From the human T2T-CHM13v2.0 reference genome, Homo sapiens: a DNA stretch of 64,000 nt. Within the stretch, counting starts at the first letter, position 1, and each line of letters opens with the position of its first letter. Shown here one piece after another: positions 7,469-35,790 of this stretch. The translations under genes and the position numbers were made by a program. The notes below the pieces were generated by a model. It searched no databases. It saw only the letters and a program-made list of their open reading frames with translations, and was not told the origin of the DNA. The stretch is taken from NCBI GenBank assembly GCA_009914755.4, contig CP086569.2, positions 11,520,001 to 11,584,000 of the forward strand, written 5' to 3'.

Positions 7469-8126
7469 TCCTGCTGACTGTTTCCTCCCGGAGCTCTGCG
7501 GGCACCCAGAAACATGCAGGGAAGGGTGGAAGTCTGGCATGGTGCCCTCGCTCTCCTTGCCAGTTTCCAAACCGGCCACACTGCAGACTCCCCATGTTGC
7601 GGCACACGGGAATCCATCGTCTGGTCATCACGCCGGGGTGGCATCTTCTCTCTGGGTTCTCGCTCTTGTCTCCTACTTGGAAATGAACGAGAGCCACACG
7701 CCTGCGTGTGTGAGACTGTCCTGGCAACAGCGACACCCACAGGCACTGCCTCCTTCACTGAGAGAGGGCTTGGAACACTCCAGACTCCAACGGAGGTTCA
7801 GTTCCACACTCCCCTCCACCCTCCCAAGCCGGTTTCTCCCTGCTGAAGACGCATGGGAACCCAGAGAGCAGCTTCCAGTTCCCGCGGGATTCCTGGAGTG
7901 GTCCGGAGAGCCAGCCCCCGAATCGTGCCCCCCTCACCCCTACCCCCTCGCCCCCTTCATCTTCGTGTCTCTGGCCCCACCACCGCCATCACCACGCCCA
8001 CCCCCCACACTCCACCATCCCCCGGCCTCAGGCCTCGACGCCCTGGGACCCTTCCGGGGTGGGGCGTGCTGTCCCAGGGCTCACGGCCATTCATGAAGTT
8101 CTGGAACCTGCCTACCTGAGGGCCTT

Positions 8127-8132
8127 TATAAG
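8127..8132 (+). promoter_or_regulatory. TATAAG box about 139 bp upstream of the copy-1 DUX4-like ATG, at the position of the DUX4 TACAA promoter element
   Basis: Sequence gggcctttataagagtcgctggctggctgtcc. Canonical D4Z4 has CTTTACAAGGGCGGCTGGCTGG at the equivalent place. Confidence 0.3.
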
Positions 8133-8265
8133 AGTCGCTGGCTGGCTGTCCGGGCACGCCTCCTGGCTGCACCTGCCGCAGTGCACAGGACGGCTGTGGT
8201 GCACGGGAGCCCGCTGGCCTCTCTGCCCATGTCCGTCCGCGAAATTTCGGCCGGGGCTCCCCGCG

Positions 8266-32553: not shown

Positions 32554-32865
32554 TTTTTTTTTTTTTTTTTTTTTTTTTTTGAGACGGAGTCTCGCTCAGT
32601 GGCCCAGGTGGGAGTGCAGTGGCGCAATCTCGGCTCACTGCAAGCTCCGCCTCCCGGGTTCACGCCATTCTCCTGCCTCAGCCTCCCAAGTAGCTGGGAC
32701 TACAGGTGCCCGCCACTACGCCCGGCTAATTTTTTTGTATTTTTTTTAGTAGAGACGGGGTTTCACCATTGTAGCCGGGATGGTCTCGATCTCCTGACCT
32801 CGTGATCCGCCCGCCTCGGCCTCCCAAAGTGCTGGGATTACAGGCGTGAGCCACCGCGCCCGGCT
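32554..32865 (-). mobile_element. AluY-like SINE with poly-T on the + strand, inserted exactly at the beta-satellite/D4Z4 junction of copy 4
   Basis: Poly-T (about 27 nt) followed by the reverse-complement Alu (gagacggagtctcgctc...ggccgggcgcggtggctcacgcctgtaatcccagcactttgggaggccgaggcgggcggatcacgag in revcomp). Flanking direct repeat ATCACTTT reconstitutes the junction gttacatcactttgttgatcagttcag seen intact in copies 1-3. Confidence 0.85.
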
Positions 32866-35655
32866 ATCACTTTGTTGATCAGTTCAGAGATGTGTCATGC
32901 TGACTGTTTGCTCCGGCAGCTCTGCGGGCACTCGGAAACATGCAGCTAAGGGTGGAACACTGGCATGGTGCCTTCGCTCTCCTTGCCAGTTTCCAAACCG
33001 GCCACACTGCAGACTCCCCAAGTTGCCGCATAAGGGAATCCATCGTCAGGCCATCACGCCGGAGAGGCATCTTCTCTCTGGGGTCTCGGTCTGGTCTCCT
33101 ACTTAGAAATGAACGAGAGCCACACGCCTGCGTGTTTCAGACAGTCCCGGCAACGGCGACACCCACAGGCACTGCCTTCTTCATGGAGAGAGGGCCGGGA
33201 ACACTCAAGAATCCCATGGAGGTTCAGTTCCACACTCCCCTCCACCCACCCAGGCCAGTTTCGCCCTGCTGAAGACGCCTGGGAGATCAGAGAGCGGCTT
33301 CCAGTTCCTGCTGGATTCCTGGAGATGTCCGGAGAGCCAGCCCCCATCACCCCTTCCCCCTCGCCCCCTTCCTCTTCGTCTCTCCGGCCCCACCATCAGC
33401 ATCACCACGCCCTCCCTCCCCACCCCACAACCCCCCGGCCACAGGCCTCGACGCCCTGGGACCCTTCCGGGGTGGGGCTGGCTGTCCCAGGGCTCACCGC
33501 CATTCATGAAGGGGTGGAGCCTGTCTGCCTGTGGGCCTTTATAGGAGCTGCTGGCTGGCTGTCTGGGCAGGCCTCCTGGGTGCACCTGCCGCAGTGCACA
33601 GGCCGGCTGAGGTGCACGGGAGCCCGCCGGCCCCTCTCTGCACGCGTCCGTCCATGAAATTCCGGCTGGGGCTCCCCGCGATGGCCTTCCCGACAACTTC
33701 GGACAGCACCCTCCCCACGGAAGCCTGGGGACGGGGACGGTGGAGGACACTCGTTTGGACCCCGAGCCAAAGCCAGGCCCTGCGAGCCTGCTTTGAGCGG
33801 AACCCGTACCCGGGCATCGCCACCAGAGAACGGCTGGCCCAGGCCATCGACATTCCGGAGCCCAGAGTCCAGATTTGGTTTCAGAATGCGAGGTCACGCC
33901 AGCTGAGGCAGCACCGGCGGGAATCTCGGCCCTGGCCCGGAAGACGCGGCCCGCAAGAAGGCAGGCGAAAGCGGACCGCGGTCACCGGATCCCAGACCGC
34001 CCTACTCCTCCGAGCCTTTGAGAAGGATCGCTTTCCAGGCATCGCCGCCAGGGAAGAGGTGGCCAGAGAGACGGGCCTCCCAGAGTCCAGGATTCAGATC
34101 TGATTTCAGAATTGAAGGGCCAGGCAGCCGGGACAGGCTGACAGGGCGCCCGCGCAGTCAGGCGGCCTGTGCAAAGCGGCCCCAGGCGGGTGTCACCCTG
34201 CTCCCTCGTGGGTCGCCTTCGCCCACACCGGCGCGTTGGGAACGGGGCTTCCCACACCCCACGTGCCCTGCACGACTGGGGCTCTCCCACAGGGAGCTTT
34301 TGTGAGCCAGGGAGCGAGGGCCGTCCCCGTGCTCCAGCCCAGCCAGGCCGCGCCAGGAGAGGGGATCTCCCAACCTGTCCCGTCACGCCAGGATTTTGCC
34401 TACACCGCCCCGGCTCCTCCAGAAGGGGCGCTCTCCCACCCTCAGGCTCCTCCGTGGCCTCCGCACCCGGGCAAAAGCCGGGAGGACCCGGACCCGCAGC
34501 GTGACAGCCTGCCGGTTGCTTGCGCGGTGGGACAGCCTGGGCCCGCTCAAGCGGGGCCACAGGGCCAAGGTGTGCTTGCGCCACCCGCGTCCCAGGGGAG
34601 TCCGTGTTGGGGCTGGGGCAGGGGTTCCCAGGGCCCAGGGGCGGCCTGGGAACCCCAAGCCAGGGTAGCTCCACCTCGCCAGCCCATGCCCCTGGAGGCC
34701 TCTGCGCGGCAGGGGCGGATGCAAGGCATCCCGGCGCCCTCCAAGGCGCTTCAGGAGCCGGGGCGCTCGTCTGCACTCCCCTCCGGCCTGCTGCTGGATG
34801 AGCTCCTGGCGAGCCCGGAGTTTCTGCAGCAGGCGCAACCTTTCCTAGAAACGGAGGCCCCGGGGGAGCTGGAGGCCTTCGAAGAGGCCGCCTTGCTGGA
34901 AGCACCCTTCAGCGAGGAAGAATACCGGACTCTGCTGGAGGAGCTTTAGGATGCGGGGTTGGGACAGGGTCGGATCGGGGCAGGGCGGTGGCCTCTCTTT
35001 CGCAGGGAACACCTGGCTGGCTATGGAGGTGCGTGTCTTCTCCCCGCCCCCTCCACCGGGCTGACCTGCCTGGGATTCCTGCCTTCTAGGTCTAGGCCTG
35101 GTGAGAGGCTCCACACAGCGGAGAACTGCCATTCTTTCCTGGGCATCCTGGGGATCCCAGAGCCGGCCCAGGTACCAGCAGGTGGGCCGCCTACTGCGCA
35201 CCCGCGGGTTTGCGGGCAGCCGCCTGGGCTTTGGGAGCAGCCGGGGCAGAGCTCTCATGCCTTTCCACCACCCCACCCCCGCCTGACCACCCACCCCCAC
35301 CACCACCCACCACCCCCGGAAAATGCGTCCTCCCCTGGGCTGGGTGGAGACCCCCGTCCCATGAAACACCGTGCCCGCACAGCGTCCAGGCCTGACACCC
35401 CTCTGGCCGCTCGCCTCCTCTGCGCCTCCGCGCCACCGTACCCGGCCCGCCTGTGCCCCTGCAGCCTCCCAGCTGCCCCCATGGAGTGCCTGGTGGTGGA
35501 ACGCACACCTCTAGCTCTCTTTGCCGGCCTCCTGGCTAGACCTGCGCTCATTGCGCACCCAGGCTGACGTGCAACGGAGACCGCTGTCCTCTCTGTGCCC
35601 TTGTCCGTCCGTGAAATTCCGGCTGAGTCTCTCCCAACACCTTCCGAAGCTCTTT
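32866..35655 (+). repeat. D4Z4-like copy 4 (5'-truncated unit, KpnI about 35172, pLAM-like tail)
   Basis: Same architecture. Degenerate TATAGG at 33540-33545 in place of the TATAAG/TACAA element. Confidence 0.85.
33681..34949 (+). pseudogene. DUX4L: DUX4-like gene copy 4: 1269 nt collinear with DUX4 in one frame, only two in-frame stops, both in homeodomain 2 helix 3
   Basis: [149 protein letters not shown]...[24 protein letters not shown]...[52 protein letters not shown]. The LLLR codon is CGA (intact). Stops are TGG to TGA and CGA to TGA. (34236-33681)/3 is an integer, so the N- and C-terminal ORF pieces share a frame. Confidence 0.85.
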
Positions 35656-35790
35656 TGTCAAATCCTGGAGAATACTTATATCTCCTGGATGATCGGTTCA
35701 GAAATATGTCACAATGCCCCCTCCCTGCGGAGCCTAGAGAAGATTTGCATCATTTGGGTGATCAGTGCAGTGATATATCACAATATTTTC
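35656..35790. repeat. Two terminal beta-satellite monomers after copy 4, then transition to unique AT-rich sequence
   Basis: ...ctggatgatcggttcagaaatatgtcacaatgccccctccctgcggagcctagagaagatttgcatcatttgggtgatcagtgcagtgatatatcacaatattttcac, then non-repetitive sequence. Confidence 0.7.

What the first reader, a model, noticed from the sequence alone, without database searches (positions are those of the whole stretch)
7469..35790. Four tandem macro-units, each a truncated D4Z4 with a DUX4-like ORF, a pLAM-like tail and kilobases of beta-satellite, form a higher-order repeat
The unit starts recur at about 7469, 15469, 22119 and 32866, giving periods of 8.0, 6.65 and 10.75 kb. Each D4Z4-like copy begins at the same LSau-like breakpoint and ends in the same pLAM-like sequence. 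The beta-satellite immediately downstream of each copy keeps the same monomer order for at least 1.5 kb (compare 10250-11600 with 18250-19700). The beta-satellite upstream of each copy is likewise shared (6300-7460, 14000-15460, 30800-32540). A multi-monomer block recurs about 1.4-1.7 kb after copies 1, 2 and 3 (11883, 19962 and 26322), with extra copies at 20986 and about 29080. So the beta-satellite is not an independent homogeneous array: it is part of a supra-unit that has been tandemly amplified, with period differences from unequal exchange inside the beta-satellite. Each unit looks like the distal end of a 4qA-type D4Z4 array (last partial unit, pLAM, beta-satellite) rather than an internal D4Z4 unit.
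Basis: partly seen in the sequence, partly recalled or inferred. Interest (0 to 1): 0.6.

Follow-up and report, generated by a model that had tools for sequence, protein, structure and literature searches.

The report
Known D4Z4-like/beta-satellite composite repeat array
This is a real but already well-described piece of primate heterochromatin: four decayed copies of the muscular-dystrophy repeat D4Z4, each with its pLAM tail, were duplicated in tandem together with kilobases of 68-bp beta-satellite, which is the "LSAU-BSAT composite repeat" of the complete human genome papers.

Summary
Four 2.75-kb GC-rich D4Z4-like blocks lie at 7471-10228, 15474-18238, 22121-24876 and 32898-35651. All share the same 5' junction with a beta-satellite monomer. 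All share the same 3' end, which is colinear with the 4qA partial unit, pLAM and first beta-satellite monomers. The periods are 8003, 6647 and 10777 bp.

The beta-satellite between copies keeps its monomer order. In-register monomers are about 92% identical against a 77% background. Successive best hits are consecutive in 30-77 cases per array pair, against at most 8 in 500 permutations. Length differences come from 15-41-monomer duplications and deletions, plus one Alu.

One correction: none of the four DUX4-like reading frames is intact, and none has the ATTAAA poly(A) signal.

The interpretation (co-amplified supra-unit, 4qA-distal-end-like) is supported, but it is not new. It matches the LSAU-BETA/LSAU-BSAT composite (Hoyt et al.). 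It also matches the 5'-truncated ~3.1-kb D4Z4-pLAM element, of which 319 copies are reported in T2T-CHM13 (Butterfield et al. 2023).

A published table lists a four-copy locus at human Yq11 (DUX4L16-19) with the same exon-1 identity range (89.1-92%), so that is the window's probable origin.

Verdict: real feature, already known, low interest.

The parts
5472..7470 (+). Beta-satellite array A0 (about 29 monomers of 68 bp) upstream of copy 1. Its first 15-16 monomers (5473-6558) are a second copy of the 'upstream block' found before copies 2-4. About seven monomers from 7009 are in register with those before copy 2.
   Evidence: TRF period 68; HMM tiling; block matches
7471..10228 (+). D4Z4-like block c1 (2758 bp, GC 66%), 5'-truncated with a pLAM-like tail. 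The DUX4-like pseudogene is at 8266-9531 and is frameshifted after homeodomain 1.
   Evidence: 90.1% to the DUX4 ORF
10229..15473 (+). Beta-satellite array A1 (about 77 monomers). The first full monomer carries the PAS-equivalent site (ATGGCA, not ATTAAA).
15474..18238 (+). D4Z4-like block c2 (2765 bp). The DUX4-like pseudogene is at 16269-17537, with in-frame stops at codons 111 and 141.
   Evidence: 89.2%
18239..22120 (+). Beta-satellite array A2 (about 57 monomers), with an internal duplication at an offset of 15-16 monomers.
22121..24876 (+). D4Z4-like block c3 (2756 bp). The DUX4-like pseudogene starts at 22906 (its terminal stop-codon equivalent ends at 24174) and has five internal in-frame stops. 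The PAS position reads ATCAAA, as in the 10q variant.
   Evidence: 89.2%
24877..32553 (+). Beta-satellite array A3 (about 113 monomers), containing a 40-41-monomer (2.7-2.8 kb) internal duplication: 25351-27527 matches 28151-30262.
32554..32865 (-). Full-length AluY-like insertion with a 27-nt poly(T) on the + strand. It sits in the last beta-satellite monomer before copy 4 and is flanked by a short duplication (ATCAC...).
32866..32897 (+). Remainder of the beta-satellite monomer split by the Alu. It restores the same 5' junction as in copies 1-3.
32898..35651 (+). D4Z4-like block c4 (2754 bp), the least diverged copy. The DUX4-like pseudogene is at 33681-34949, with stops at codons 141 and 145. 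Its N-terminal 140 aa match the human DUX4 homeodomains.
   Evidence: PDB DUX4/DUX4L2, E = 4.5e-80; 92.2%
35652..35784 (+). Terminal two beta-satellite monomers (pLAM-distal part). The composite array stops abruptly in mid-monomer at 35784/35785.

Best explanation
The region 5472-35784 is a short array of the known LSau/D4Z4-like plus beta-satellite composite repeat (LSAU-BSAT).

Origin of the unit (inferred). A 5'-truncated D4Z4 element lacks about 0.9 kb from the KpnI end. It still carries the DUX4 retrogene, the start of the next D4Z4 unit and the pLAM region. It became embedded in a beta-satellite monomer.

Amplification (order conservation shown, mechanism inferred). The element was then duplicated in tandem together with about 5 kb (about 76 monomers) of flanking beta-satellite, by unequal crossing-over or replication-based tandem duplication. 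This gave a macro-unit of about 8 kb.

Later changes (shown). Out-of-register exchanges between 68-bp monomers added or removed blocks of 15-41 monomers, giving periods of 8.0, 6.6 and 10.8 kb. A patch between units 1 and 3 is still 98.5% identical, which points to recent exchange or gene conversion. An Alu inserted next to copy 4. CpG decay and frameshifts killed all four DUX4 reading frames.

Function (inferred). The array has no coding function. It is most likely constitutive, methylated heterochromatin, consisting of CpG-rich islands set in CpG-poor satellite.

Open point. Whether the amplification happened at this locus, or the four-unit block arrived as a piece of a larger array, cannot be decided here.
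For: Identical 5' and 3' junctions in all four copies.

D4Z4-like blocks are 86-89% identical pairwise in the four-way alignment, and 89-92% at non-CpG sites.

Monomer order is conserved far beyond chance. Long in-register HSPs are 86-91% identical against a 77-80% background.

Orthologous monomers are 92-93% identical, or 93-94% at non-CpG sites. This is of the same order as the D4Z4-like parts.

Internal monomer-block duplications explain the length differences.

A patch of 270/274 identical bases links A1 and A3.

DUX4 identity is confirmed against solved human DUX4 structures.

The copies are colinear with the 4qA stop-to-pLAM-to-beta-satellite sequence. Published primers fall in the correct order and spacing. 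The 5' D4Z4 amplicon is half present.

Literature. [quoted passage not shown] Beta-composite arrays are described. The 5'-truncated ~3.1-kb D4Z4-pLAM element has 319 copies in CHM13, about 90% identity to 4qA and CpG about 5.4%. Here CpG is 5.5-6.6 per 100 bp.

A four-unit Yq11 locus with exon-1 identity 89.1-92% matches the 89.2-92.2% found here.
Against: No reference genome could be searched, so neither the locus nor a RepeatMasker LSAU-BSAT label was verified directly.

The 4qA and DUX4 probes were recalled from memory. They were validated only at published primer sites and by their full-length alignment to the window.

The published table scores 'exon 3' as 0/4 for the Yq11 locus. Here an exon-3 homologue (about 85% identical) is present in all four copies. 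That table may use stricter criteria, or this may be a different locus.

Beta-satellite orthologues are slightly less diverged than the D4Z4-like blocks. This could reflect path-selection bias, gene conversion or a somewhat different history.
Confidence: 0.9

Rival explanations
1. The four-unit block was not amplified here. It is a fragment of a much larger LSAU-BSAT array (as on acrocentric short arms or 1q12) that was copied to this site by segmental duplication and has only decayed since.
For: Both ends are abrupt. At the 5' end a 31-bp non-satellite linker separates the HSat from the first beta-satellite monomer. At the 3' end the array stops in mid-monomer at 35784/35785. Units are 11-14% diverged, so they are older than most pericentromeric segmental duplications. 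The literature lists a paralogous 3-copy 10q11 locus sharing the DUX4L16/18 names with Yq11.
Against: Nothing in the window distinguishes in-situ from ex-situ amplification. The 98.5% patch between units 1 and 3 shows that exchange continued after the units diverged. That is compatible with either history.
Confidence: 0.4
2. There were four independent, site-specific insertions of a mobile D4Z4-pLAM element into the same position of a beta-satellite monomer in a pre-existing homogeneous array.
For: The block interrupts a monomer at the same phase in every copy (HMM position about 28, resuming at about 37). DUX4 is regarded as a retrogene or 'retroelement' in the literature.
Against: Kilobases of flanking monomers are shared in the same order on both sides of each copy. 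No target-site duplication or poly(A) tail is seen at the junctions. Flank divergence matches that of the element.
Confidence: 0.02
3. This is a cluster of functional DUX4 paralogues, each with its own promoter and 3' end, maintained by selection.
For: The ATG, both homeobox regions and the C-terminal region are recognisable in every copy. CpG observed/expected remains 0.53-0.59. The region homologous to the DUX4 proximal promoter is retained.
Against: Every copy has a frameshift or 2-5 internal in-frame stops. The longest N-terminal frames reach 110-207 codons. No copy has ATTAAA at the PAS position. The literature reports such paralogues to be uniformly hypermethylated.
Confidence: 0.03
4. 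The pattern is an assembly artefact or a chance resemblance within a homogeneous satellite.
For: Satellite regions are prone to mis-assembly.
Against: The copies differ by 11-14% and carry private features (Alu, distinct stops, different array lengths), so they are not collapsed or duplicated reads. Permutation tests exclude chance.
Confidence: 0.02

Closest known systems
LSAU-BETA / LSAU-BSAT composite repeat of T2T-CHM13 (Hoyt et al., preprint 10.1101/2021.07.12.451456); 'beta-composite arrays' of Altemose et al. (10.1101/2021.07.12.452052); originally the Sau3A/LSau linkage of Agresti and Meneveri (1989-1993) and the acrocentric D4Z4 homologues of Lyle et al. 1995
   Same: It has 68-bp beta-satellite interspersed with LSau/D4Z4-like elements carrying DUX4 homology. 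The units are arranged in tandem. Intra-array identity falls within the 80-95% reported for centromere-transition arrays. It lies next to other pericentromeric satellite (HSat).
   Different: Nothing of substance differs. This array is short (four units) and, from the published table, is probably the Yq11 DUX4L16-19 locus rather than an acrocentric array.
5'-truncated ~3.1-kb D4Z4-pLAM element (Butterfield et al. 2023, PMC10620044; 319 copies in CHM13)
   Same: The 5' part of D4Z4 is missing: the forward primer of the 5'-D4Z4 amplicon is absent, while the reverse primer lies 37 bp from the junction. The element runs through DUX4 exons 1 and 2, the KpnI-proximal partial unit and pLAM exon 3 into beta-satellite. 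Identity to 4qA is 85-92%. CpG density is 5.5-6.6% against about 5.4% reported.
   Different: The distance from junction to ATG is about 0.79 kb. That implies a truncation nearer 1.0 kb than the approximate 0.9 kb quoted. This is within the looseness of the published figure and was not checked against a reference D4Z4.
Distal end of the 4qA D4Z4 array (last unit, partial unit, pLAM, beta-satellite)
   Same: The order of segments and the junction into beta-satellite are the same. Exon-3 primer sites are conserved. The PAS position falls in the first full beta-satellite-like monomer.
   Different: There is no permissive ATTAAA (the copies read ATGGCA, ATGTCC, ATCAAA and ATGTCA). The DUX4 ORF is disrupted. 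The 5' side is beta-satellite rather than further D4Z4 units. The context is not subtelomeric.
Classical beta-satellite higher-order repeats (pB3, pB4; Waye and Willard 1989, as reviewed in PMC8125562)
   Same: Multi-monomer order is repeated.
   Different: Classical HORs are homogenised, made of beta-satellite only and of fixed length. Here the repeats are about 8% diverged, of variable length and include a 2.75-kb non-satellite element.

Membership tests
LSAU-BSAT composite repeat | Arrays of 68-bp beta-satellite monomers | tested here: met
   TRF gives period 68. There are 283 + strand HMM hits tiling 5472-35784 outside the four blocks.
LSAU-BSAT composite repeat | Interspersed LSau/D4Z4-like element with DUX4 homology | tested here: met
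   PDB DUX4/DUX4L2 match at E = 4.5e-80. tblastn and blastn to DUX4 give 80-85% amino-acid and 89-92% nucleotide identity.
LSAU-BSAT composite repeat | Composite unit found as a tandem array (Hoyt definition: the repeating unit is arrayed in at least one location) | tested here: met
   Four head-to-tail copies with conserved flanking monomer order.
LSAU-BSAT composite repeat | RepeatMasker/T2T annotation as LSAU-BSAT, and location on one of the 16 listed chromosomes | not testable with these tools
   No primate reference or Dfam library is available. The Yq11 assignment is inferred from a published table and the identity range.
5'-truncated D4Z4-pLAM element | [quoted passage not shown] | tested here: met
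   The reverse primer of the published 5'-D4Z4 bisulfite amplicon is present at 7508, 15510, 22157 and 32934. The forward primer is absent. Only about 0.79 kb lies upstream of the ATG.
5'-truncated D4Z4-pLAM element | Continuous D4Z4, about 0.3-kb partial unit, then pLAM (exon 3) at the 3' end | tested here: met
   The 916-nt probe aligns end to end at 85-88%. Exon-2, exon-3 and distal primers map in order.
Permissive 4qA-type DUX4 expression unit | Intact 424-codon DUX4 ORF | tested here: not met
   A frameshift or 2-5 internal stops in every copy.
Permissive 4qA-type DUX4 expression unit | ATTAAA polyadenylation signal in exon 3 | tested here: not met
   The hexamer position reads ATGGCA, ATGTCC, ATCAAA and ATGTCA.
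Homogenised satellite higher-order repeat (strict sense) | Near-identical (>95%) repeat units of fixed length | tested here: not met
   Units are 86-89% (D4Z4-like part) and about 92% (beta-satellite) identical. Periods are 8.0, 6.6 and 10.8 kb.

The most novel reading that the evidence does not exclude
The most novel reading left open concerns monomer-resolved anatomy rather than the repeat class.

(a) The beta-satellite half of this LSAU-BSAT unit has a fixed order of about 76 monomers, with nested 15-41-monomer duplications and a recent conversion patch.

(b) The last ~124 bp of every D4Z4-like block (the 5' part of pLAM exon 3) is a 75-80% paralogue of the ~124 bp immediately upstream of the DUX4 ATG. 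This implies that pLAM is the remnant of a second D4Z4 unit that lost about 1.3 kb internally and was cut off by beta-satellite just before its ATG.

If neither point has been stated in print, they would add a small piece to the evolutionary history of the FSHD locus.
Probability: 0.15. Interest if true: 0.3.

Novelty: already known. Interest (0 to 1): 0.12.

Why it matters
It matters little as a discovery. The element class, its 5' truncation, its pLAM tail, its embedding in beta-satellite and its tandem composite organisation are all published, most recently with the T2T assemblies.

It has practical relevance for FSHD work. Such copies are 85-92% identical to 4q D4Z4. At least one standard DUX4 RT-PCR primer (DUX4-1A-F) matches copies 3 and 4 perfectly, and several others match with 1-2 mismatches. 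The copies are therefore a source of off-target signal. None of the four could yield full-length DUX4.

The window also gives a clean small example of how a composite satellite changes length by out-of-register exchange between monomers.

Tried and rejected
- An Rfam scan of the whole window gave no hits. The MIR8078 overlap mentioned for LSAU could not be checked that way.
- An exact-protein look-up of the 140-aa copy-4 frame in public assemblies found nothing on record.
- The supplement of Butterfield et al. with the pLAM guide RNAs is not held. I used the primer table of PMC4965136 instead.
- Megablast at >=96% identity returned no separate high-identity patches, because HSPs were extended into lower-identity flanks. 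The 98.5% patch was shown by direct alignment.
- The phase-preserving position of the block within a monomer (position 28 to 37) was considered as evidence for a single insertion event. On its own it is not significant, with roughly a 1 in 4 chance.
- The large protein and metagenome searches, structure prediction and the phage, plasmid and E. coli collections were not used. They cannot inform on primate satellite DNA.
- Independent insertion, a functional gene cluster, an assembly artefact and chance were considered and rejected (see the rival explanations).
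Full report
**What is in the window**

Composition and self-alignment divide the window into three parts.
- 1-5441 is a strongly C/T-skewed pentamer satellite, (CCATT)n, with about 1077 copies.
- 5472-35784 is 68-bp beta-satellite interrupted by four GC-rich blocks.
- 35785-64000 is AT-rich non-satellite DNA with about a dozen Alus and an L1 ORF2 fragment.

**Checking the observation: the four blocks**

A profile HMM built from the beta-satellite consensus tiles the middle part with 283 + strand monomers. It leaves four gaps of 2754-2765 bp: 7471-10228, 15474-18238, 22121-24876 and 32898-35651.

In each case the upstream monomer stops at model position about 28 and the satellite resumes at position about 37. 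A four-way alignment shows the same 5' junction to the base.

It sits 30 bp upstream of the junction, with a 27-nt poly(T) and a short flanking duplication.

At the 3' side all four copies are colinear into the satellite. Copies 1-3 continue for kilobases. After copy 4 the array stops in the second monomer, at 35784/35785. The periods are 8003, 6647 and 10777 bp.

**Is the shared monomer order more than chance?**

I cut the four arrays into 273 monomers and computed all pairwise identities. The background is 77.4% +/- 5.5.

Between arrays, the best hit of monomer i+1 is the successor of the best hit of monomer i far more often than chance allows. The counts were 33/75, 37/75, 30/55, 40/55, 77/111 and 43/111. 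The maximum in 500 permutations of monomer order was 3-8.

A monomer-level alignment gives long diagonal runs at 90-93% identity. One example is A1 10466-12447 against A2 18544-20525, 29 monomers at 92.1%. BLAST finds the same structure as 1-3.5-kb HSPs at 86-91%.

The last 12-16 monomers before copies 2, 3 and 4 are orthologous. About seven monomers before copy 1 are in register: the alignment with copy 2 starts at 7009, and the last six carry the same best-hit labels as those before the other copies. A0 also holds a second copy of that block at 5473-6558.

It occurs at 11834, 19913, 20937 and 26273 (94-96% pairwise over 341 bp) and at 29006 (about 86%). Each occurrence is marked by the same shortened monomer.

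**Why the periods differ**

- A3 contains a 40-41-monomer internal duplication: 25351-26169 matches 28151-28969 at 91.6%, and 25767-27527 matches 28498-30262 at 87%.
- A2 contains a 15-16-monomer duplication and lacks about 20 monomers present in A1.
- The Alu adds 312 bp to the third period.
- One stretch of A1 (12585-12858) is 270/274 identical to A3 29829-30102. It is followed directly by 138 bp that are 97-99% identical to a different part of A3 (27024-27161). Exchange or conversion between non-adjacent units therefore continued long after the units diverged.

**What the blocks are**

The first 140 codons of copy 4 match solved structures of the human DUX4 and DUX4L2 double homeodomain at E = 4.5e-80.

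I had no reference genome, so I used DUX4 protein, ORF and 3' sequences recalled from memory. I then validated them in two ways.
- The recalled ORF translates to the recalled protein and contains five published primers at consistent positions.
- The recalled 916-nt stop-to-pLAM probe contains the published exon-2 and exon-3 primers of PMC4965136 Table 1.

The ORF aligns full length to the four copies at 90.1, 89.2, 89.2 and 92.2%. The 3' probe aligns end to end at 85.3, 84.6, 85.1 and 87.8%.

Published primers map to the window in the right order. In copy 4 the exon-3 start primer is at 35538 and the post-PAS genotyping primer at 35742. They span 227 bp, against the 226-bp product in 4qA.

The reverse primer of a published amplicon from the '5' end of D4Z4' lies 37 bp inside each copy. 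Its forward primer, expected about 440 bp upstream, is absent from the whole window.

Each block is therefore a D4Z4 unit truncated at one shared 5' point, with about 0.79 kb left upstream of the ATG. It continues through the KpnI-proximal partial unit and pLAM exon 3 into beta-satellite. That is the architecture of the 4qA distal end.

**State of the coding and regulatory parts**

- None of the ORFs is intact. Copy 1 is frameshifted after homeodomain 1. Copy 2 has stops at codons 111 and 141. Copy 3 has five internal stops. Copy 4 has stops at codons 141 and 145.
- At the position of the FSHD-permissive ATTAAA the copies read ATGGCA, ATGTCC, ATCAAA (the 10q-type variant) and ATGTCA.
- CpG density is 5.5-6.6 per 100 bp (observed/expected 0.53-0.59) in the blocks. 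It is 0.8 per 100 bp (0.15) in the satellite.

**Did block and satellite travel together?**

In the four-way alignment the blocks are 86-89% identical pairwise, or 89-92% once CpG-context sites are removed. Orthologous beta-satellite monomers are 92-93% identical, or 93-94% at non-CpG sites.

The two figures are of the same order. The small excess identity of the satellite may reflect the choice of best path or the conversion seen.

Together with the conserved order on both sides, this supports duplication of the whole macro-unit rather than repeated insertion.

**Comparison with what is known**

- Altemose et al. distinguish simple beta-satellite arrays from 'beta-composite arrays' interspersed with LSau.
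- Hoyt et al. define the LSAU-BETA composite, found on 16 chromosomes as arrays and as single units. They note 80-95% intra-array identity in centromere transition regions.
- Butterfield et al. report that the commonest D4Z4 relative in T2T-CHM13 is a 5'-truncated ~3.1-kb D4Z4-pLAM element with 319 copies. [quoted passage not shown] It is about 90% identical to 4qA, has CpG about 5.4% and is uniformly methylated. They regard D4Z4-4qAS-pLAM as the ancestral form.
- The DUX4 review records that the distal part of pLAM consists of 68-bp Sau3A-type repeats.

**Probable address**

Table 1 of PMC12963445 lists one four-unit locus: Yq11, DUX4L16-19, flanked by beta-satellite, with exon-1 identity 89.1-92%. 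That range matches the 89.2-92.2% found here. An HSat flank is also plausible for proximal Yq.

The same table scores exon 3 as absent there, whereas I find an 85% homologue in all four copies. I cannot test the address, so I hold it at about 0.6-0.7.

**Mechanism and verdict**

Shown:
- identical junctions;
- conserved monomer order;
- block-wise monomer indels;
- a recent conversion patch;
- pseudogenisation.

Inferred:
- tandem duplication by unequal exchange of an ancestral composite unit of about 8 kb;
- heterochromatic silence;
- whether amplification occurred in situ, which remains undecided.

It is an ordinary member of a catalogued repeat class.

Noticed in passing
window 1-5441 and junction 5441-5471: A (CCATT)n-type pentamer satellite (HSat2/3-like) with about 1077 copies and 74% matches runs to 5441. 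A 31-bp non-satellite linker (tctgtatatgtccacggatatccctgtataa) separates it from the first beta-satellite monomer.
   Followed up: partly
window 32554-32865: A full-length AluY-like element, antisense, with a 27-nt poly(T). It is inserted in the last beta-satellite monomer 30 bp before copy 4, with a short flanking duplication. It is the only interspersed repeat inside the composite array.
   Followed up: yes
window 8142-8262 vs 10087-10210; 16155-16265 vs 18111-18221; 22797-22899 vs 24754-24857; 33555-33677 vs 35511-35634: In every copy the ~105-124 bp just upstream of the DUX4 ATG are 75-80% similar to the last ~124 bp of the block, which is the 5' part of pLAM exon 3. This suggests that pLAM is the remnant of a second D4Z4 unit with a large internal deletion, cut off by beta-satellite just before its ATG.
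   Followed up: partly
window 10280-10290, 18291-18301, 24930-24940, 35704-35714 (approximate): The site equivalent to the FSHD-permissive poly(A) signal falls at positions 26-31 of the first full beta-satellite monomer (satellite consensus GTCACA). Copy 3 reads ATCAAA, the same hexamer as the non-permissive 10q allele.
   Followed up: partly
window 12585-12996 vs 29829-30102 and 27024-27161: A near-identical patch (270/274, then 97-99%) links non-adjacent arrays A1 and A3, against about 92% elsewhere. It joins two different parts of A3, which is a footprint of recent unequal exchange or gene conversion.
   Followed up: partly
window 7443-7470 / 10229-10258 and equivalents: Each D4Z4-like block interrupts a beta-satellite monomer almost in phase (model position about 28, resuming at about 37, with about 8 nt missing). 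There is no target-site duplication or poly(A) tail.
   Followed up: partly
window 24025 and 34800: The published DUX4-fl RT-PCR primer DUX4-1A-F matches copies 3 and 4 with no mismatch. Several other standard DUX4 primers match with 1-2 mismatches. This is a practical off-target source for FSHD assays.
   Followed up: yes
window 35785-64000: Beyond the abrupt end of the array lies AT-rich non-satellite DNA with about a dozen Alu copies (for example 39540-39839, 40225-40511 and 45516-45811). There is a GC-richer stretch near 36570-36971, a 78-bp x2 repeat at 49250-49408 and an L1 ORF2 (endonuclease) fragment at 62271-63024.
   Followed up: no
whole window: The four-copy count, the beta-satellite flank and the exon-1 identity range (89.2-92.2%) match the published entry for human Yq11 DUX4L16-19 (89.1-92%). 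That table scores exon 3 as absent there, whereas an ~85% exon-3 homologue is present in all four copies here.
   Followed up: partly
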